A stretch of 62,025 nucleotides of DNA, counting the filler, from Globobulimina sp. (lineage: Eukaryota): NCBI GenBank assembly GCA_003354225.1. It is 21 parts of 21 records of this genome, joined end to end, with 100 filler letters (N's around TTAATTAATTAA, not from the genome) between each part and the next. Parts side by side here need not be neighbours in the genome. Positions count along the whole stretch, not along the records: positions 2,962 to 5,822 come from PIVH01004587.1; 20 more parts are not named here. One strand, 5' to 3'. The notes under the pieces were generated by a model. It saw only the letters and a program-made list of their open reading frames with translations, made no database searches and was not told where the DNA came from. Shown here piece after piece: positions 1-59,069 of the stretch (the first letter of the stretch is position 1; each line of letters opens with the position of its first letter). Made by a program: the position numbers and the translations under genes.

Positions 1-947
1 TGCAGTTCATCGATCATGTCATTAATAAACGCAGCAAACAATATGGGGCTAAGGACGGAGCCTTGGAGCACGCCATTCTGTAAACGAAAGAGCTGAGTAA
101 TGAAAGGAACATCGCGTATGGCTGATTGGGAGTCATTGTAGATGGCCTGAATGAGTTTGCAGACATTTATAGGAATGGCGAAGTTATGATGCAGTTTGTA
201 GAGTAGGCCTTTTCTCCAAACTGTGTCAAATGCCTTTTTTATATCCAAGGAGGCGCAGTAAAGGGGCTGGTTATGTTTGAGGGCAGTTTCCGAGACCAGG
301 TGGAGAGTGCCAATTTGTTCAGGGACTCCACGTTGGGCTCTGTTGCCGCCTTGAAGAATATGTAGATTCCGCCTGAATTTGTGGTTTATATTCATGTTCC
401 AAAGGAGGAGTCTTTCATAGGCTTTAAAGATTATGGGCAGCAGAGTGATGGGTCTATATTGGTTCGGGGTGTCACCATCGGGCGTTTTTAGAATGGATAT
501 TATGGAGCCCAGTCTGCAGTAGTATGGGATGATGTAGGTTGCATTCCAAACGTTAAACATGACACAGAGGAGTTGATGTATGAGGTCTGAATTGACGGAA
601 AGATGCTGCGACTTTAATCCGTCATAGCCCGGTGCTGAATTCGCATTGGCAAACTGCATGGCCATTTCGACAGAGCTGTATTTCAGAGAAGAGTCATATT
701 CATCCTCTGGATTGTCGGTGGTGATATCATCTGTGGGGGCAGTCGGGAGAGCATTATGACGGAGGTTTGGGAGAGGAGCTGCATCATTGCCAGGGGTGTC
801 AGGGCCATTTATTTGATGTATCATATTGTGCTCAATCTCAAACATTTCTATTTGTTCATTGTGGTTTTTGTCTTGGTTATCCGGGTTATAATGGGGAATG
901 CCGTTCGTGTGGTTTTGTTGCAGCCAGGTTTCAGGAGCGTTTGTCAT
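1..947 (-). mobile_element. Non-LTR retrotransposon reverse transcriptase, running off the window edge (absent from the ORF track)
   Basis: Manual minus-strand translation gives SAPGYDGL, QYRPITLLPIIFKAYERLL, LDIKKAFDTV and NGVLQGSVLSPILFAAFINDM. In-frame ATG at 947; the frame is open further upstream. Confidence 0.93.
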
Positions 948-1059
948 GGGTTCCAAGGGAGGAGGGGGCAATGTTGGGGGATCGTTGTCGTCATTGTTGG
1001 AAGGTTTGGCGGGGATGAAGACTATATTATTATGTTGGAAATTATTGAGATTGCGGTTG

Positions 1060-1135
1060 AACTGATTGATGCAGTGGATTTTTGGAACAAACTGATTGAT
1101 GCAGTGGATTTTTGGAACAAACTGATTGATGCAGT
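1060..1135. repeat. 30-bp tandem repeat (about 2.5 copies)
   Basis: aactgattgatgcagtggatttttggaaca repeated. Confidence 0.9.
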
Positions 1136-1209
1136 TGAACTGATAAAAATGCAACAAATATGAGTATGAGTATGAAGAGGAAGACGAAGAGGAAGAGGCG
1201 AAACTCGAT

Positions 1210-2472
1210 ATGGAAGCAAACGACAATGAAATTTTGCCATTGTCATTGTCTGAAAACTGCGTTAATATAAAAAGATTTCGTAGAGAATCCGTGTCCGGAC
1301 CAATAAAAGGCTCCTCCCACTTCACTCCATTTGTGACCACATTGATTGTTATGATATTTGCAGGCTCAAGCAACGATTTTTTAGCAAAGCTCATCTATCA
1401 AATGTATCCAGGCCACAATGATAAATTGAACGGTGTTTCTGCTCTCAAACACGAATATTGGTTAACATTTTTATTAACATTTGGATCTTTTTTTGTGTGT
1501 TTTTTTGCGTTATTTGCGAAAGCAGCGCGTGCTTCATTTGGTAGAGTAAATACTAAAGTTTTGATAAAAATTGCGGTTCCATCCATTCTGGACACATTAG
1601 TTACAGGCGGCCGCTATTTAGGTTTAGTATTCTTATCTGCTGCGCTTATATCTATCTTAAAAAATGGATCGCAACTTTTATTCCTCGCATTGTTAAGGTA
1701 CATTTGTATAATTTTTGTAATTTTTCTACAAATCTACATTCCATGAAATCAAAGGCGATGCTTTCATCATAAGAAACTTTTATGTGCGGAATGGTTGGGC
1801 ATAGCCATTATTATAACTGGTTTATTGGTGGTGACATTAAATAAAATGTATATAACTCTGTCTGATGACGACGGAACAGCAACATTTACAGATGGCATTA
1901 TTGGCATTGCAATCATGATAACTGTTGGTTTTGCGGGTGCAGTACGCAACGATATCGAAGAATTGTTGTTGAAAAATGATAACTTAAATGCAAATTTTAT
2001 TGTGGGCTTAGAATCAGCCATTTCGTTGACATTTACCCTGATTTTAGGTGTTTTATTGTATGCTGTTGATCCATTTCATAATATTGATAAAGAGGATATG
2101 TTTGCCAATATTAAAAGAGATATTTTGGTCAAACCTGCATTCATTATAAGTTTTGTTTTATTTTTAGTGGCAATTTATGCCAAAGATACAATGCAGATGA
2201 AAATGACTGCGCTGTCAAGTTCTTTAACGCGGAAATTGTTTCAACAAATCTATCCATCCGGAACTTGGATCATATCATTGACAGCGTTTGCCATTACTTC
2301 TACGTTTGTTGTATTTGGTGGTAAGTATGGCGAAGATTGGGAAGATAAATATTCATGGATTCGATTAGCAGGATTTGCCATTGTGTTGGTTGGAAATTAT
2401 TTTTATATCAAAGGACATATTATTTTTGCAAAATTGACGTATTGGAGAAGTTATACAGTTTCATATGATTAA
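1210..2472 (+). CDS. SLC35F6-like / DMT-superfamily membrane transporter, 2 exons (intron 1698-1754)
   Basis: Multi-TM protein with PSILD, GL..LSA..I, EELL, VGLES, 'SSLTR' and GEDW motifs. Splicing the 57-nt GT-AG intron joins the two ORFs in frame (LRRCFHHKKLLCAEWLG). Confidence 0.8.
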
Positions 2473-2961: not shown

Positions 2962-3707
2962 ACTGTACTCTCTATACCGCGCTTAAAACACAGTCAGTTG
3001 CGCCGGTTCTTGCTCCATTAAATCTGTCCATCAGCTCGCTGTCTTATATCCATCTTTTTGCGTAATAATCCATTCCTCATTGGTTTCACAAAAATATTTA
3101 AATTCATCAATCCAAAATTCGGCCGTTTATAAACATTATTCCAATGAGGTAAATCCAATCCATTCGATAGCGCGGCCATTTGGCGCATTTTATCCATTTT
3201 ATTTCTAATATCAACCATTTGTTCATGTTGATGTGTATTGTTACCATTATTATTTGCGAAATCTGCTCGTAAACCATTCAATAAATGGTTTGTATTGAGC
3301 AATGACTGTGGCTGATGAGGAAATAGAGGAAGGTTAACTTAGTTTAGTTAGTATTAGAAAAACATAAAGCATAAACCATAAATGAACCTACAACCAACCT
3401 TTTCAGATATTATCAGTGTCATTCATGCATTCTATTGATATATTATATTCCATTGGAGGAAATGGAGGAAATGGAGATATCAAAAAAAATAACAAAAATG
3501 TAACGTTTTTCAGTTTGCAAAGCCAAAAATTAGTCATTTTCAATTCAGCTAATCCTGTCAACAACAAACAGCTTAAAAAACGCAATATTCCCAAAACCGT
3601 CAACTAACTGATCTAGTCATCAACTCATCATGTCAACTATTATAAGATCCACTTGTATTAAATTTAAACATAGTTAAATATTTTTTACAAGTAATTCTGC
3701 ACCGGAA

Positions 3708-5306
3708 ATGAAAAGAAATTTCTTTTTTGCATTGATTGAACAAACAGCAACGTATAGACTATCATCAAGATATTTGTGCACCAATACTGCATTCAACTTA
3801 GATCAACGAATATACACATTAGTCAAACAAAATCGTAGTCCAAATCAAATCATCCAACTATTCAATGAAAACAAGGATAAGTCCGATTATAACGCAAAAA
3901 CATATGTAATTGTTCAAAAATCATTGATAAAATTGCAATGCCAAAATAAACAATGCTACGATGCAGATAACATTTGGGAACACATGAAGCATAAAAACAC
4001 ACTAACAACAAAAGACTATTATGAAATCATCTTAATTTTTGTGTCACATCGTTTGCCTAAAACTGCATTAAAAATATTTTACAAAATGGTTCGAGACAAT
4101 ATCCAGCAAACAGAAGCAATATATGTATCTGTAATGGCTTGCGTCGCACAGTTGCGCTCACACAACAAACTAAAAGATGCAAACAAAATATATAATATCA
4201 TTGCAAATAATAATGCAAACTTTTTGGAAACTAATTCAAAGATTGCTACATCGATATTAAGCATGTTCTTAAAATGTGGTGACATGACCAGTGCGCAGAA
4301 AATATTCCAAACTAAATGTGATAGGAAGTCTGTTGTGACATGGTGTGTGTTGATAAATGGCATGATCGAAGACGGAAAACTTACTGAAGCAGTACAGTTA
4401 TTTGACGAAATGCTCAAAAATGGCATACTTCCGGATGCTGTGGTATATACAACCATAACTAAAGCTATTCGAAGATTAAAATTATTGGACAAAGCAAATG
4501 ATATTTATCATATAATAGATAATGATGGAAATATCATTATGTATAGTAATATTCCATTGTGTAACGCACTCATTTCCATGTTTGGTGCTTGTGGAGATGT
4601 GAATAAATCGAATGAAATATGGAACACTTTGATGGATAATAAGTTAGATATCCCCGATAATAAAACATTGCAAGCCATTGTTTTTGCTAACTATGAAAAC
4701 GGGAATTATGAAATGGTGATTGAAGCATATGAAACAATGAAGGAACTAAGGGATGGTTTGCCAATTGGAAATCGCCCGAGTTTACAGCAACGGAATCTTA
4801 ACCCACAGAAATTAACATGTATCAGAACCATCGAAGCCTGTGGTCAATTAATAGATGTTGGAAAGGGGAAATTTGTGCATTTGGATATAATGGACAGTAA
4901 CTCACAGCTTTTACGCCAGGATGAAGTGCCATATGTATTGATGGAAATGTATATAAAATGCTGTGGTTTGACAGAGGGCATTGATATGTTTAAAGATGTT
5001 ACGCGAATGCATGATGTCAAGACATTTACATTTATGATTAATACATGTATTGCGTATGGGGAGAATATGAAAGCATTTGTGTTATTTGATGAAATGAGCA
5101 ACGTTTATGAAATTAAACCCGATTCCACTGTGATTGTGTCTATATTAAAGATATGTGATCAGGCGATTTTGTTGAAACATATGTACGAATACATCAACAG
5201 TATAGATTCGACAGTGTGCGATGATGCAGTTGTTTGTGAAGCATTAAAACAGGCATATGGACGATGCAAAGACACGCAAAACACAAAATGCATGGAAATG
5301 TGTTGA
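3708..5306 (+). CDS. Pentatricopeptide repeat protein with P-L-S-like motifs; probably organelle-targeted; no E/DYW domain
   Basis: SMFLKCGD..AQKIF, VVTWCVLING..EAVQLFDEML..GILPD, CNALISMFGACG, GKGKFVH; basic/hydroxylated N-terminus. Confidence 0.9.
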   Translation: MKRNFFFALIEQTATYRLSSRYLCTNTAFNLDQRIYTLVKQNRSPNQIIQLFNENKDKSDYNAKTYVIVQKSLIKLQCQNKQCYDADNIWEHMKHKNTLTTKDYYEIILIFVSHRLPKTALKIFYKMVRDNIQQTEAIYVSVMACVAQLRSHNKLKDANKIYNIIANNNANFLETNSKIATSILSMFLKCGDMTSAQKIFQTKCDRKSVVTWCVLINGMIEDGKLTEAVQLFDEMLKNGILPDAVVYTTITKAIRRLKLLDKANDIYHIIDNDGNIIMYSNIPLCNALISMFGACGDVNKSNEIWNTLMDNKLDIPDNKTLQAIVFANYENGNYEMVIEAYETMKELRDGLPIGNRPSLQQRNLNPQKLTCIRTIEACGQLIDVGKGKFVHLDIMDSNSQLLRQDEVPYVLMEMYIKCCGLTEGIDMFKDVTRMHDVKTFTFMINTCIAYGENMKAFVLFDEMSNVYEIKPDSTVIVSILKICDQAILLKHMYEYINSIDSTVCDDAVVCEALKQAYGRCKDTQNTKCMEMC

Positions 5307-5464
5307 AATTAACCAATAATAAAAAAAATGGGTATATATTTCAAAACTACTGTATTTCAAAACATGCAAAAAATATTTATTCCATGAACCCAAATGTGTA
5401 TTTATTTGTATGTATTTATACTATTTTTTTATAAGCTTGATTATAAAAAGAAGAACAAGTGTTT

Positions 5465-5629
5465 GGCTTAGTAGCTCAATATTTCGATATTTCAACTCAA
5501 CCCCCAACTAACGTCGGAACTTTAACAATTAACGTCGTGCTATTTCGCTTCTTGTGAAATATATAATAATAAAATTAAGCTTGAGTTAAATAATGCATAT
5601 AGATGTGGGTTTAAATCCCGCCTAAGCCA
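5465..5629 (+). ncRNA. tRNA-like structured element (acceptor stem + T arm enclosing a roughly 130-nt interior); tRNA pseudogene or novel ncRNA
   Basis: GGCTTAG (5465-71) pairs perfectly with CTAAGCC (5622-28) followed by A; TAGCTCAA follows the 5' stem; T arm GTGGG-TTTAAAT-CCCGC at 5605-5621. Confidence 0.55.
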
Positions 5630-5637
5630 TACTTTAT

Positions 5638-5724
5638 GCGCGGATGATCCTCACTGGTGTGGTGTGCAGACTTCAAATCTGTAGGTGTATAACAACACAG
5701 TGGTTCGATTCCACCTTCTGCGCG
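5638..5724 (+). tRNA. tRNA-Sec (anticodon UCA), eukaryotic 9/4 type
   Basis: GCGCGGATGATCCTCACTGGT...GCAGACTTCAAATCTGTA...GTGGTTCGATTCCACCTTCTGCGCG closely follows eukaryotic tRNA-Sec. TCA at 5673-75, long variable arm, G discriminator, downstream T-run near 5760. Confidence 0.96.
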
Positions 5725-6170
5725 GTAAATGTATGAAACACTTTAAACCGAAGGAGACATTTTTTTTTGTTTCTTAGAGGATGGAATCTCCGCTTTTTTA
5801 ATTAAAACATTAAGGTTTTTGCNNNNNNNNNNNNNNNNNNNNNNNNNNNNNNNNNNNNNNNNNNNNTTAATTAATTAANNNNNNNNNNNNNNNNNNNNNN
5901 NNNNNNNNNNNNNNNNNNNNNNATATATTCCAAAAGATAACCCCCCCCCCCCCATGGTGGATAAATTTTTTACTTTTAATTAAATTATCTTAGAAACCCT
6001 TTGCAAATCCAGAACCGGTATTCTATAAATTTTTCTTGGGTTTGTTCTGTGTTTGTTATAACTTTGTCTTGGGTTTGCAAATCCAGAACAAAGTCAGAAC
6101 AAAGAGCATCCGGACTTCAGAGTCAGATTTTTATTGGGGTAAGGTGTCAGCAAACCGTTTCTGGTGACTG

Positions 6171-6299: not shown

Positions 6300-7133
6300 T
6301 TATGCCTGTGTCTCATCATTATATATGATGATATTATCAATAGTTTCATTAGAACCACGTTCCTTGCACTGAAACATCCACACAAAACAAACAAAACAAG
6401 CGCCCAATTTCATGAATAAATAATAAAATGTGATGATGGGATTTGAACCCAAATAGCATATGCTCTCCTTAAGCATCATCACAACCACGCGATTACACCA
6501 AATCTTAACATTCAAATTTTCTATATTTAGCACAAATTTCTGCTGCATGACATTCAAATATTTCCTTTCAATGCTTTGGAATTTGTTGAGTTCCAATCCC
6601 ATACAATGCAGGAACTCAGCAAACGGGTCGTCCGGATTTGAGAACTGGTCGCAGAGCACAGCGGGCGCGATAAAAGTGGATATGCACTGATTCGATAATT
6701 GAGTCATAAATCTGTGGCAATGTTGCTGTGCCTCGTACAGTTTCTGCACAATGCTGCTTATCATATCGATTTGTTTCGCATTTTTGTCAATTTGCCGCAT
6801 CAAAGCATCAATGTCCAATTCTGGCAAAACATGCGACTGTTTCCCGACGGCTGAATGGTAAAATTCCTTTCTTTTAATTTTCTGCGCAAAATGCGACATC
6901 GAACTGCTTTGTTTGTGTTTGCTATGCCGCCGCATATAAGATATGAATTGATTGTGTATTTGCGGCGAAGTCATTGATTTATTGGCCATAGCTTGATGCG
7001 CTACGTACGAATTATGCGACGCGTATTGGCCGAGGATTGGCGAAGATATCGGCAGCGGAGAACGGCTCTGTTTTACTGCCCAAATGTCAATGTGTCCCGG
7101 CGGTGTTGTTTTAATTTTAAAACACTCATTCAA
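6300..7133 (-). CDS. Hypothetical protein, helical/coiled-coil (possibly BAR-like); 3' part probably intron-containing
   Basis: Long ORF with a helical pattern; the C-terminal translation looks like intron read-through. Confidence 0.45.
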   Translation of the reverse strand: MNECFKIKTTPPGHIDIWAVKQSRSPLPISSPILGQYASHNSYVAHQAMANKSMTSPQIHNQFISYMRRHSKHKQSSSMSHFAQKIKRKEFYHSAVGKQSHVLPELDIDALMRQIDKNAKQIDMISSIVQKLYEAQQHCHRFMTQLSNQCISTFIAPAVLCDQFSNPDDPFAEFLHCMGLELNKFQSIERKYLNVMQQKFVLNIENLNVKIWCNRVVVMMLKESICYLGSNPIITFYYLFMKLGACFVCFVWMFQCKERGSNETIDNIIIYNDETQA

Positions 7134-56427: not shown

Positions 56428-59069
56428 CTATAACCTACTTATGTCGAGTAAAAACATTGCGTCATTAACAAAATTCTGTGACTTAACAAATCGGGTAAAT
56501 GTGCTAATATTGGCATGAATAATATCATCATTTAAATGGTTCCATAAATTACTGGCTACATACAGAAAAGACTTTTTGTTTCTAATCGGACCTGAATGAT
56601 ATGATGGTAACATAACAGTTAAAGAATGATTTGTACGACTACTACGTCTAGTATTACATACATTGACAGAAACGATACAACCCTGTGGTAAGTACCGAAA
56701 TAAGTGAATATAACGGTACATCAAAAGGCAACGACGCTCACACACAAACCGTGACACAGATTTCCATTTAAGAGTACATAACATATCTGAATATGAAACA
56801 TTATACCGATTTAATGATAATTTAGCTGCATAACACTGAAGTCGCTCTAATCTTAATTGATCAGTTACATTTGTAGGATATGTAACCGAGCATGCATACA
56901 AAACTGATGGTTTAATAACTAGTTCATAAACTTTGCGTATAACATGAGGAAATTTGTGGCCAATAGTACGACGGAGTGCTCCTAGGGCAGACTTAGCAGC
57001 TGCTACCTTTTTGTTGGTATGTGAGCTAAAGGACAATCTGCGATCTAGAAGCACTCCGAGGTACTTAACTTCCTCTACACATGCAACAATAACATCCCCA
57101 ATTGATAGTTCAGGGGTAAATGGTGTAGGGGCCGGACCGGGAGCAACCGAAAATATCATATACTGAGTTTTACCAATATTGAGGGTTAACCCCAAATCAG
57201 CAAAAGCTGCAGCAACGACACTCAGGTCACTCCTGATCCGACCCTCAGACTGACTATTGAGCAAAGGGCACACATAACATAAATCATCCGCGAAACCGAC
57301 TAAGTGTGCATCAGGCGATAATTTAGACTGAAGAACAGAGTTAACATATGCAACAAATAACACAGGTGACAAGACACCACCCTGTGGGGTGCCACTTAAT
57401 ACAGTACGTGTACTAGAGAGTTGGCCACCAACTCTAACTGATTGAGTTCTATCAAATAATAAAGATTTTAGTACACAAAGCAAATAAGATGGTAAATTAT
57501 ATGTATGTTCTAAACATGTTAATAACCTCCCTAATGGTACAGTATCAAATGCTGCACTTACATCAAAGAAAATCGCACATGTTTCTGTTCTTTTTCCTTT
57601 GCACTTTTCAAACCCATCGCAAATTAACTTTTCAAAATAGACCAGAGCATCCTCTGTGGACCGGCCACTTCTGAATCCAAATTGACTGTCAAACAACAGA
57701 GGGCCAAGGTATGGTAGCAGCAATTTTAATAAATGTTTTTCCAATATTTTGGCAAGGAATGGCAACAAACTGATTGGACGATAGTCTTTGGGCAAAGTTG
57801 ACCCTGATATTTTTGGTATAGGAACCACAATTGCATGTTTCCATGATGATGGAATTTTTCCTTCGACTAAACAGCGATTGATAAGTATAGCCATTGTTGG
57901 GGCCAAGATAGCAGCTGCCTCTTTTAGCAATCGAATGGGAATGTTGTCATGACCCGGTGCTTTGTTTTCAGGTATTTTCATTATCTCCTCATATACGAAT
58001 TCTGCCTCACACATCCACTCTGGTTCTAGTTCAGGAGGTGGTACTGTATGCGGGGGTGGCCCATCCTGTGTATTCCATTTAGTGTCATAATGATCGGCAA
58101 TGACATTAGCTTTCCCAACATTATCGAATATTGGTACATTATCAACAGATAATGTCGGAATAGTAGCAGGGGGTCCTTTAGTCACATTTCTAATCGATTT
58201 CCAAAATTCTTTTGGTGACTTGCAATTTTGGAATAAATCAGTATAATGAGATAGTTTAGCAGACTTTACCTCCTTTTCCACCCTCTTTTTCAAACGTCTA
58301 GCATAACGACTTTTGTTAACATCATTTGGGTTGTGATCGGCGGCAGCTTGTGAATTGTTCTTTCTTCTAATCAGTTGTTTGAGGGGTTTCTTTAGCCATG
58401 ACTTAGAGGGGTCCAATTTTATTGTTTTTTGGGGGACATTTGCAGTAGCAGTTGTTAAGATCGAAGTTGTTAAAATTTCAGCTGCTTCATCGATGGTAGA
58501 TGCATTTGAAATCTTTTCTGACAAATGTTGGTCGGCCAATTGTTGTCGATAAGAAGTCCAATCAGCGCGTTTATACACCCAAACTGTACGTGAAATAACA
58601 ATGGCTTTCGGCGCGATAAAAGGTAAAATCACCCATAACATACGATGGTATTTTTCTATGCATCCGGAAGTACCCCAGGAGGGTGATGGCCAACAACATG
58701 GGACTAGAATATGATCAATAGCTGATGAACTTCTAGGAAGAATATGTGTTGGTAGATTAACAATTTGGTCCAGTTCATAATTATGACAAAAATAAGTATA
58801 GTCCTCTTCTATTTTCATCGAGTCAATGTTCGTATCACCCATGATAACAAGACGTTGCCTTTGATGGGCTAGATCAACAATAAATTCAGACAACAGGTCG
58901 AGAAAGTCTGATTTACTTTGAACATTCGGCGATCGATAGACTGAGGCAATAATGAGAGATTTTCGTCCATTATGAACTTCTACAGCAACTAGTTCAAGAC
59001 CAGTAGGTGTTCGTCGGGGTGCCAACTTTCGGGGGTTTAGGTCAGATCGCACAAATAAACCAACACCAC
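56428..59069 (-). mobile_element. LINE retrotransposon ORF2 (APE endonuclease + RT), uninterrupted, 5' truncated by contig edge
   Basis: SVYRSP, MGDTN, AIDHI; KAPGHDNI, YRPISLL, QFGFR, DVSAAFD, GTPQGGVLSP, FADD, KYLGV. Confidence 0.96.

What the first reader, a model, noticed from the sequence alone, without database searches (positions are those of the whole stretch)
5465..5629. 165-nt tRNA-shaped RNA 8 nt upstream of tRNA-Sec
Seen: a perfect 7-bp acceptor stem with A discriminator, TAGCTCAA after the 5' stem, and a 5-bp/7-nt T arm. The D and anticodon arms are replaced by about 130 nt that can form a long closing helix (TATTT-C-AACTCAA 5488-5500 with TTGAGTT-AAATA 5581-5592), an 8-bp hairpin (5541-48/5554-61) and a TAACGTCG direct repeat. 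This topology (acceptor + T arm + long helix enclosing a loop domain) resembles tmRNA. However, it lacks the G3-U70 alanine identity pair, and the D-loop GG and C56 are absent. Inference: a dicistronic leader that supplies promoter boxes or RNase P/Z processing for tRNA-Sec (normally dependent on upstream promoter elements), a new structured ncRNA, or a decayed tRNA with insertions. A CAACCCCCAAC stretch (5498-5508) resembles a 1.5-repeat telomerase template, but that reading is highly speculative.
Basis: partly seen in the sequence, partly recalled or inferred. Interest (0 to 1): 0.7.

Follow-up and report, generated by a model that had tools for sequence, protein, structure and literature searches.

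The report
Broken long-intron tRNA gene before tRNA-Sec
The 165-base element is a damaged copy of an unusual transfer-RNA gene with a very long intron, sitting as the first gene of a two-gene unit whose second gene is the selenocysteine tRNA; related protists carry intact versions in the same arrangement.

Summary
The element is not a tmRNA-like or telomerase-like RNA.

In five metagenomic contigs whose tRNA-Sec is nearly identical to the window's, I found 11 tRNA genes of 207-246 nt. They have the same head (7-bp acceptor stem, then TAGCTCAA), the same T arm and, in 10 of 11, discriminator A. Each carries a 127-171 nt insert at the anticodon-loop intron site. The cloverleaf covaries strongly: 13 of 21 pairs change on both sides. 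With the insert removed in silico, all nine tested genes are called ordinary tRNAs.

Members with anticodon GCA sit upstream of tRNA-Arg(CCG) and tRNA-Sec. Spacers are 8-23 nt with no T run, and T runs follow only the last gene of each unit.

Other copies in reads of the window's organism carry 47 nt that the window copy lacks. This stretch holds the D-stem 3' strand, the anticodon-stem 5' strand, the GCA anticodon and the start of the intron. It was lost between two 12-nt direct repeats.

The window copy therefore cannot decode. It keeps the box A/B-like sequences and the acceptor/T-arm helix, so it may still act as leader cistron for tRNA-Sec. That last step is inferred, not shown.

The parts
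5424..5430 (+). T7 run upstream. It would end any Pol III transcript arriving from upstream.
   Evidence: Sequence read. Its role is inferred.
5442..5449 (+). TATAAAAA, a TATA-like stretch 16-23 nt before the element.
   Evidence: Sequence read. The 80 nt upstream (5385-5464) recur with the element in other contigs of run X1 (table 8, records 2-4). Promoter function was not tested, and no such motif lies upstream of the relatives' units.
5465..5471 (+). Acceptor stem, 5' strand (GGCTTAG).
   Evidence: The pairs covary across the family (helix 1: 6 of 7 pairs change on both sides, 100% paired).
5472..5489 (+). U8-A9, D-stem 5' strand GCTC (5474-5477) and D loop AATATTTCGATA (5478-5489). 5472-5483 is box-A-like. 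5478-5489 is the direct repeat at which the deletion occurred.
   Evidence: In one search table 5c, other copies continue after 5489 with 35 further letters and then repeat 5478 onwards.
5490..5593 (+). Remnant (104 nt) of the long intron. It holds the C-rich motif, the TAACGTCG repeat, the 8-bp hairpin and the closing helix.
   Evidence: Relatives have 127-171 nt inserts in the same position. Its sequence does not align with the relatives' introns.
5594..5604 (+). Start of the 3' exon: nt 38 (T), anticodon-stem 3' strand GCATA (5595-5599), and the 5-nt variable loop TAGAT.
   Evidence: GCATA is the exact complement of the TATGC present in the longer copies (table 5c) and has no partner in the window copy.
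5605..5621 (+). T arm GTGGG / TTTAAAT / CCCGC. GGTTTAAATCC (5608-5618) is box-B-like.
   Evidence: The T stem covaries in the family (helix 4: 4 of 5 pairs change on both sides).
5622..5629 (+). Acceptor stem 3' strand CTAAGCC and discriminator A.
5630..5637 (+). 8-nt spacer TACTTTAT, with no run of four or more T.
   Evidence: Another copy in run X1 has 37 other letters here (table 5c).
5638..5724 (+). tRNA-Sec gene (anticodon TCA, G73 at 5724).
   Evidence: Rfam RF01852, 73.3 bits. Nearly identical to the tRNA-Sec of L001, L003, L004, L005, L007 and L014.
5760..5768 (+). T9 run, the first T run of four or more after 5430. Likely Pol III terminator of the two-gene unit.
   Evidence: Function is inferred.

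Best explanation
The element is a defective copy of a lineage-specific tRNA gene with anticodon GCA. This gene type carries a very long intron (about 135 nt in this organism) in the anticodon loop.

The window copy has lost 47 nt between two 12-nt direct repeats. The lost stretch held the D-stem 3' strand, position 26, the anticodon-stem 5' strand, the anticodon and the first 19 nt of the intron, plus one copy of the repeat. The RNA can therefore no longer form a D arm or an anticodon arm, and it cannot decode.

What remains is the box-A-like head, the box-B-like T loop and the acceptor/T-arm helix. The copy lies head to tail 8 nt before tRNA-Sec, with no T run until a T9 36 nt past tRNA-Sec.

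Most likely RNA polymerase III starts at the element and transcribes both genes as one precursor. RNase P and RNase Z would then cut at the tRNA-shaped ends and release tRNA-Sec.

Shown here: the family, the missing segment, the gene order and the terminator pattern. Inferred: transcription, processing, and any dependence of tRNA-Sec on the element.
For: (1) Relatives.
- A metagenome scan with the tRNA-Sec anticodon arm gave 18 loci. Six of them (L001, L003, L004, L005, L007, L014) have a tRNA-Sec nearly identical to the window's.
- Five of these six hold 11 tRNA-shaped genes of 207-246 nt, one cut by a contig end. All have a 7-bp acceptor stem followed by TAGCTCAA (or TATCTCAA) and a T arm; discriminator A in 10 of 11.

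(2) Cloverleaf counted on the alignment of the window element plus nine relatives.
- 96.0% of cells are paired.
- 13 of 21 pairs change on both sides.
- 0 of 500 shuffles reach any of the four measures that rose (percent of cells paired, pairs and cells changed on both sides, covariation score).
- Slid controls pair only 24-46%.

(3) Independent tRNA callers.
- Rfam tRNA passes its gathering score for 3 of the 11 genes (45.8, 44.9 and 40.9 bits).
- After in-silico removal of the insert, 18 of 18 variants (nine genes, two splice registers) are called standard tRNAs: Cys-GCA x2, Arg-GCG x3, Arg-ACG x1, His-GTG x1, Tyr-GTA x2.

(4) Other copies in the same organism.
- Contigs of run X1 match 5413-5489, then carry 35 extra letters, then repeat 5478-5502 (table 5c; two variants).
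- The extra letters read GAGC (pairs with GCTC 5474-5477), A, TATGC (exact complement of GCATA 5595-5599), then the loop CTGCAG and a hairpin like the one in the GCA relatives.

(5) Position.
- The four GCA genes of the relatives all lie directly upstream of tRNA-Arg(CCG). In three of them (L001, L004, L007) tRNA-Sec follows.

(6) Unit structure.
- All 14 spacers between head-to-tail genes are 8-23 nt and have no run of four or more T.
- All 11 unit-final genes that could be assessed have such a run within 36 nt.

(7) Another X1 copy also links the element to tRNA-Sec, through a 40-nt spacer without a T run (table 5c; table 8, record 6).

(8) Family-only profiles pick the element as the best hit in the window.
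Against: - No transcript, precursor or processing product was seen for any copy.
- The window copy scores below Rfam's tRNA threshold (25.9 against 29 bits). ARAGORN does not call it even with introns allowed.
- tRNA-Sec does not always need an upstream tRNA. In L014 it is the first gene of its unit, and L005 shows no tRNA in the 260 nt upstream.
- The intron remnant does not align with the relatives' introns, so homology rests on the exons, the anticodon of sister copies and the position.
- I could not see an X1 contig that spans the deletion junction 5489/5490 as the window has it. table 8 lists 30 records and leaves 48 unshown.
- The family itself departs from ordinary decoders. The 31-39 pair is unpaired in 8 of 9 genes. 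One subfamily would have a pyrimidine at position 37 under the canonical splice register, and its anticodon differs between L004 (GTG) and L014 (GTA) with compensating changes in the intron. The discriminator is A, whereas tRNA-Cys normally has U73 (recalled rule).
Confidence: 0.6

Rival explanations
1. Same identity (a deleted copy of the long-intron tRNA gene), but an inert relic. It contributes nothing to tRNA-Sec. That gene would use its own internal or upstream signals, or this whole copy of the unit is silent among several copies.
For: tRNA-Sec stands first or alone in L014 and L005, so it can be expressed without a leader tRNA in relatives. Run X1 holds several distinct versions of the element-plus-tRNA-Sec unit (tables 5c, 7, 8), so this copy may be redundant.
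Against: The acceptor stem is still perfect, the T arm is intact and the head is unchanged. There is no T run between the element and the T9 after tRNA-Sec.
Confidence: 0.25
2. Assembly or strain artefact. The real locus carries the full-length gene, and the 47-nt gap arose when near-identical copies were merged.
For: The region is present in several diverged copies in run X1. The only contigs I could see crossing 5489 carry the extra 35 letters (tables 5c, 8). X1 holds 0.78 of the sampled words of 3700-5790.
Against: The junction lies exactly between two 12-nt direct repeats, which is the usual signature of a real slippage deletion (inference). 48 laid records were not shown, so the junction may be covered.
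Confidence: 0.1
3. The family are not spliced decoders but tRNA-scaffolded non-coding RNAs. The 130-170 nt domain stays in the mature RNA, held by a tRNA-shaped body. The window copy is then a shorter variant of such an RNA.
For: - Anticodon and position 37 vary between L004 and L014 members that share an identical acceptor stem, with compensating changes in the adjoining hairpin.
- The 31-39 pair is unpaired in 8 of 9 genes.
- The insert has its own conserved hairpin, with 5 compensated pairs among the four GCA genes.
- No bulge-helix-bulge motif was visible on inspection (no program was run).
Against: - The GCA anticodon and its loop are invariant in the 4 relatives' GCA genes, and the sister copies in X1 also have GCA.
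- The insert always sits at or next to 37/38, the one place where eukaryotic tRNA introns lie (PMC5330540, passage).
- All nine genes become standard tRNAs when the insert is removed.
Confidence: 0.1
4. A tmRNA-like or telomerase-RNA-like molecule.
For: The acceptor-plus-T-arm topology enclosing a large domain, and the CAACCCCCAAC motif at 5498-5508.
Against: No tmRNA was found by ARAGORN or Rfam. There is no G3-U70. The C-rich motif is not kept among close relatives. The topology is fully explained by a tRNA intron.
Confidence: 0.01

Closest known systems
Eukaryotic intron-containing tRNA genes, in particular Drosophila tRNA-Tyr CR31905, whose 113-nt structured intron is released as a stable circle (tricRNA; PMC4536317, passages read)
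   Same: The insert lies in the anticodon loop at or next to 37/38. A helix forms between the anticodon and the start of the intron and covaries. The intron has conserved structure.
   Different: The inserts are 127-171 nt. Papers give 14-60 nt as usual (PMC5330540, passage), call about 64 nt 'unusually long' in Ostreococcus tauri (PMC13578239, passage), and report 113 nt in the fly. Here they occur in genes with at least five different anticodons. The window copy has lost the anticodon. Splicing and circles were not shown.
Tandem (dimeric) tRNA genes of Schizosaccharomyces pombe and hemiascomycete yeasts, and the tRNA-5S rRNA dicistronic genes of Yarrowia lipolytica (PMC2566860, abstract and passages read)
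   Same: The genes lie head to tail with very short spacers. The terminator follows only the last gene. The leader is a tRNA gene whose internal promoter can drive the trailer.
   Different: The trailer here is tRNA-Sec, and units can hold three genes. In the window the leader is a broken tRNA gene. Co-transcription was not tested.
tRNA pseudogenes and tRNA-derived SINEs
   Same: A tRNA-shaped sequence that cannot decode, present in several diverged copies in one genome.
   Different: The copies seen stay linked to tRNA-Sec (record 6 and table 5c). No further copy lies in the other 20 pieces of the window. There is no A-rich or LINE-like tail. The stems are unmutated.
tRNA-Sec expression in other eukaryotes: upstream U6-like promoter in vertebrates, Pol II transcription in Trypanosoma brucei (PMC2943599, abstract read)
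   Same: tRNA-Sec may rely on signals outside its own body.
   Different: Here the outside signal would be a preceding tRNA gene within a Pol III multi-gene unit. My searches did not list this arrangement.
tmRNA
   Same: An acceptor stem and T arm enclose a large domain.
   Different: This is a eukaryotic nuclear locus. There is no G3-U70 and no tmRNA call. The domain is an intron remnant.

Membership tests
Rfam tRNA (RF00005) | Score at or above the 29-bit gathering threshold | tested here: not met
   The window element scores 25.9 bits. Three relatives pass at 45.8, 44.9 and 40.9 bits. The other eight long genes were not listed at E up to 1.
tRNA cloverleaf | Acceptor stem and T arm | tested here: met
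   7 Watson-Crick pairs, and 5 bp with a 7-nt loop. Both helices covary in the family.
tRNA cloverleaf | D arm and anticodon arm with an anticodon | tested here: not met
   The D-stem 3' strand, the anticodon-stem 5' strand and the anticodon are absent from the window copy. They are present in sister copies (table 5c) and in all relatives.
Long-intron tRNA gene family of this lineage (defined here) | Acceptor stem followed by TAGCTCAA, family-type 3' exon, discriminator A | tested here: met
   table. The 3' exon profile built without the window finds 5596-5629 at E 2.3e-05 as the top hit in 62 kb. The 5' profile's top hit is 5465-5482 at E 0.15.
Long-intron tRNA gene family of this lineage (defined here) | Insert of more than 100 nt at the anticodon-loop intron site, opened by an anticodon-intron hairpin | tested here: inconclusive
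   A 104-nt remnant is present, but the hairpin and the 5' splice site are deleted in the window copy. Both are present in sister copies.
Long-intron tRNA gene family of this lineage (defined here) | Head-to-tail placement in a multi-gene tRNA unit | tested here: met
   8 nt before tRNA-Sec. The GCA genes of L001, L004 and L007 precede tRNA-Arg and then tRNA-Sec.
tRNA-Cys | Anticodon GCA | tested here: not met
   Absent from the window copy. Present in sister copies and in 4 relatives.
tRNA-Cys | Discriminator U73 (identity rule recalled, from no call) | tested here: not met
   A at 5629, and A in all four GCA relatives.
Dicistronic / tandem Pol III tRNA unit | Short spacer without a T run, with a terminator only after the last gene | tested here: met
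   8-nt spacer. No run of four or more T from 5431 to 5759. T9 at 5760-5768. The same pattern holds in 14 of 14 spacers and 11 of 11 assessable unit ends.
Dicistronic / tandem Pol III tRNA unit | One primary transcript spanning both genes | not testable with these tools
   Only contigs could be laid, and none on record as RNA covers the element.
tmRNA | G3-U70 pair, tag reading frame, detection by ARAGORN or Rfam | tested here: not met
   C3-G70. ARAGORN found 0 genes. No tmRNA hit at E up to 10. The tag frame was not examined.
Telomerase RNA | Template motif conserved among close relatives | tested here: not met
   The motif differs among L001, L004 and L007.
tRNA-derived SINE | Many dispersed copies independent of the neighbouring gene | tested here: inconclusive
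   No other copy in the window's other 20 pieces. There are several copies in run X1, but those seen remain joined to tRNA-Sec. No whole genome is held.

The most novel reading that the evidence does not exclude
This little-sampled protist lineage keeps a whole set of tRNA genes (anticodons GCA, GCG, ACG, GTG, GTA) with structured introns of 127-171 nt. These introns would be functional RNAs in their own right, for example stable circles like fly tricRNAs. The lineage also expresses tRNA-Sec by attaching it to Pol III multi-gene tRNA units. The window copy would then be a tRNA gene reduced to a bare promoter-and-processing cassette for tRNA-Sec.
Probability: 0.2. Interest if true: 0.65.

Novelty: new variant of a known kind. 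Interest (0 to 1): 0.45.

Why it matters
On its own the window element is a broken tRNA gene. Its relatives show three things of interest to tRNA biologists.
- Anticodon-loop introns well beyond the sizes given in the papers I read, with conserved internal structure.
- Eukaryotic Pol III units of two or three tRNA genes as the apparent rule in this lineage.
- tRNA-Sec as a regular member of such units. That would be a third way, after the vertebrate U6-type promoter and trypanosome Pol II transcription, of expressing a tRNA whose own box A is atypical.

There is also a practical point. Standard tRNA finders miss or mis-call these genes: ARAGORN at its default settings found none of the long genes.

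Tried and rejected
- Whole-genome search: no genome is held for this window.
- Metagenome scan with the element's first 22 nt: 0 hits.
- Expression: no RNA holder listed. The two runs guessed to be RNA (X6, X8) gave contigs over the PPR gene that stop near 5390 and 5320 and give no cover of the element. This says nothing either way.
- Depth in X1 is 5.3 over the PPR gene and 24-177 over 5380-5729. The tool states that this is not a copy number, so I rely only on the distinct contig variants.
- BLAST of 5380-5795 against the window: no second copy.
- Rfam at E up to 1 on six relatives' loci: no known family matches the inserts. The only extras were weak YrlA and CrcZ chance-level hits.
- By eye I looked for C/D or H/ACA box patterns and for a bulge-helix-bulge motif at the insert borders in the sequences, and saw none. 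No program was run for this.
- Aligning the window's intron remnant to the relatives' introns: no credible alignment.
- Telomerase template: rejected.
- Taxon: the GNT-I ORF's best hits are unnamed sequences at 67% identity or less, and named ones are 27-40%. I did not pursue the organism's name.
- Literature searches listed no paper on tRNA-Sec in tandem tRNA units or on such long tRNA introns in protists. This is not proof of absence. Supplements were not consulted.

Full report
**Observation**

- The acceptor stem is perfect: 5465-5471 pairs with 5622-5628 in 7 bp, and the discriminator A is at 5629.
- TAGCTCAA follows directly after the 5' stem.
- The T arm is 5605-5621, with 5 bp (one a G-U) and a 7-nt loop.
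- The closing helix pairs 5488-5500 with 5581-5592.
- The 8-bp hairpin is 5541-5548/5554-5561.
- TAACGTCG occurs twice.
- The C-rich motif is at 5498-5508.

The minimum-energy fold keeps these elements (-34.4 kcal/mol, z -2.79). Rfam confirms tRNA-Sec at 5638-5723 (73.3 bits), 8 nt downstream, with G at 5724. Rfam's general tRNA model matches 5465-5629 from end to end, but at 25.9 bits, below its 29-bit threshold. It places 102 nt in the D loop and leaves the anticodon arm unaligned. ARAGORN calls nothing in the window.

**Context**

The window is not one stretch of a chromosome. It consists of 21 pieces of about 2,860 nt joined by N44-TTAATTAATTAA-N44 linkers. The finding's piece is 2962-5822. 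It holds a PPR-repeat ORF (3708-5306), the element, tRNA-Sec and 99 nt beyond. Anything past 5822 comes from another place in the genome. No whole genome is held.

**Other copies in the same organism**

I laid contigs of four public runs on 3700-5795. In run X1 the PPR gene is covered by one long contig, while 5385-5735 is covered by many short contigs that differ from each other. This is what several diverged copies would produce.
- Two contig variants match 5413-5489, then carry 35 letters that the window lacks, then repeat 5478-5502 (table 5c).
- Those letters read GAGC, then A, then TATGC, then CTGCAG, and then a short hairpin.
- GAGC is the missing partner of GCTC (5474-5477).
- TATGC is the exact complement of GCATA (5595-5599), which sits immediately before a 5-nt variable loop and the T arm.
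- These sister copies therefore have a complete D arm and an anticodon stem, and a loop C-T-GCA-G.

The window copy lacks 47 nt relative to them. The loss lies between two copies of the 12-nt repeat AATATTTCGATA. Another contig joins the element's 3' end to tRNA-Sec through a different, 40-nt spacer (table 5c; record 6). The pairing of element and tRNA-Sec is therefore itself duplicated.

**Relatives**

A metagenome scan with the element's first 22 nt found nothing. A scan with the tRNA-Sec anticodon arm found 18 loci. Six of them (L001, L003, L004, L005, L007, L014) have a tRNA-Sec nearly identical to the window's, so they come from related organisms.

A scan for an acceptor stem plus T arm and a follow-up found 11 tRNA-shaped genes of 207-246 nt in five of these loci. 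One is cut by a contig end. All begin with a 7-bp stem followed by TAGCTCAA (TATCTCAA in one). All have a D arm, a 4-5 bp anticodon stem and a loop starting CT. An insert follows, then the 3' strand of the anticodon stem, a 5-6 nt variable loop, a T arm and a discriminator, which is A in 10 of 11.

**Is the family real?**

Several independent tests say yes.
- Covariation: on the alignment of the window element with nine relatives, the cloverleaf has 96.0% of cells paired and 13 of 21 pairs changed on both sides. On the four measures that rose (percent of cells paired, pairs and cells changed on both sides, covariation score), 0 of 500 shuffles reach the observed value. Slid controls pair 24-46%.
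- Rfam: 3 of the 11 genes pass the tRNA gathering score. The others were not listed.
- ARAGORN with introns allowed: it of 11 with introns of 127-171 nt. However, it places the intron at different loop positions, and it names four of them differently from my reading. The exact splice register is therefore open.
- Insert removal: with the insert removed in silico at either 37/38 or 36/37, 18 of 18 variants are called standard 73-77 nt tRNAs: Cys-GCA x2, Arg-GCG x3, Arg-ACG x1, His-GTG x1 and Tyr-GTA x2.
- Intron start: the nucleotides right after the anticodon form a hairpin with the start of the insert in every member, and this hairpin changes in step with the anticodon.
- Intron structure: among the four GCA genes the insert also has a conserved 3' hairpin with 5 compensated pairs.

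**Placing the window element**

Profiles of the two exons built from relatives only find 5596-5629 (E 2.3e-05) and 5465-5482 (E 0.15) as their best hits in the whole window. The sister copies have anticodon GCA. In the relatives, the GCA genes are the ones that lie upstream of tRNA-Arg(CCG), followed by tRNA-Sec in three of four loci. The intron remnant itself (5490-5593) does not align with the relatives' introns.

**Units**

In the relatives and the window, tRNA genes stand head to tail in groups of two or three.
- All 14 spacers are 8-23 nt and contain no run of four or more T.
- All 11 group-final genes that could be assessed are followed by such a run within 36 nt.
- In the window there is a T7 at 5424-5430, no such run from 5431 to 5759, and a T9 at 5760-5768.

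This is the layout of the tandem tRNA genes of fission yeast and hemiascomycetes. In those, the leader's internal promoter drives a dimeric precursor that the normal tRNA end-processing enzymes resolve (PMC2566860, abstract and passages).

**Mechanism**

- Shown: the element is a member of this gene family that has lost its D-stem 3' strand, its anticodon-stem 5' strand and its anticodon. It keeps the head, T arm and acceptor stem, and it is the first gene of a two-gene unit ending in tRNA-Sec.
- Inferred: Pol III initiates on the box-A-like and box-B-like sequences, reads through to the T9, and RNase P and RNase Z release tRNA-Sec. Both enzymes recognise the acceptor/T-arm helix; this is established knowledge and comes from no call.
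- Against a strict dependence: tRNA-Sec is first in its unit in L014, and has no tRNA in the 260 nt upstream in L005.

**Open points about the family**

- The 31-39 pair is unpaired in 8 of 9 genes.
- One subfamily would have a pyrimidine at position 37 under the canonical register. Its members in L004 and L014 share an acceptor stem but differ in anticodon (GTG against GTA).
- The GCA genes have discriminator A, not the U that I recall as the cysteine identity mark.

These points leave room for the reading that some members are tRNA-shaped carriers of the inserted domain rather than decoders.

**Comparison with the literature**

- Papers give 14-60 nt as the usual size of eukaryotic tRNA introns (PMC5330540, passage).
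- About 64 nt is called unusually long in a green alga (PMC13578239, passage).
- A fly tRNA-Tyr gene has a 113-nt structured intron that becomes a stable circle (PMC4536317, passages).
- Multi-copy tRNA-Sec is reported for a haptophyte with nine genes (PMC13578239, passage).
- Five searches listed nothing on tRNA-Sec inside tandem tRNA units or on such introns in protists. This is not proof that none exists.

**Verdict**

The element is best filed as a deleted copy of a long-intron tRNA gene at the head of a tRNA-Sec unit. It is a new variant of known kinds (intron-containing tRNA genes, tandem tRNA genes), not a new class of RNA. Interest is moderate, and it lies mainly in the family and its link to tRNA-Sec rather than in this damaged copy.

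Noticed in passing
window 1-62025: The window is a chain of 21 pieces of about 2,860 nt, joined by N44-TTAATTAATTAA-N44 linkers at regular spacing. Neighbours across a linker are not genomic neighbours, and ORFs are cut at piece ends.
   Followed up: yes
window 6428-6483 (-): A 56-nt tRNA-shaped sequence in another piece. It has an acceptor stem, D arm and T arm, but only 2 nt where the anticodon arm should be. Rfam tRNA gives 29.9 bits, just above threshold, E 0.00015 in 271 nt. TTTT follows it directly. It shares AGAGCATATGC with the sister copies of the element. This is a second anticodon-less tRNA-like locus in about 60 kb of this genome, and it lies inside a 277-aa ORF that has no Pfam match.
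   Followed up: partly
window 3708-5306 (+): The PPR-repeat ORF next to the element has a borderline match to PPR_long, the PPR region of protein-only RNase P (27.3 bits against a cut-off of 27). No nuclease domain match was listed, so it is not a PRORP on this evidence.
   Followed up: no
window 3-1394 (-) and 56428-59052 (-): Two reverse-transcriptase ORFs (RVT_1, E 6.7e-18 and 5.9e-33), probably retroelements, in other pieces of the genome.
   Followed up: no
L001 1-155 and 822-989; L014 4-97 and 617-760; L004 614-655: In the relatives, the tRNA units sit among other small-RNA genes: U2 (97.1 bits), U6 (80.3 bits) and partial SRP-RNA matches (32-35 bits, below threshold). These appear to be dense clusters of small-RNA genes.
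   Followed up: no
L004 1115-1334 (+); L014 1017-1261 (+) and 1710-1951 (-): These three long genes share an identical acceptor stem and D arm, but read GTG in L004 and GTA in L014, with compensating changes in the intron hairpin. Under the 37/38 register they have T or C at position 37, while the 36/37 register gives G37. The splice register, or their decoding role, is unclear.
   Followed up: partly
L014 1490-1550 (+): A run of TTTTTTG-like repeats (six T runs of 4-7) directly follows the last gene of a two-gene unit.
   Followed up: no
window 5478-5489 and 5610-5616; L003 498-728: The window element and L003:498-728 both have GA in place of the usual GG in the D loop, together with T in place of C at the third T-loop position. 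This could be a compensated tertiary pair (19-56 by standard numbering, recalled). The GCA genes of L001 and L004 have GA with C, so the pattern is not consistent.
   Followed up: partly
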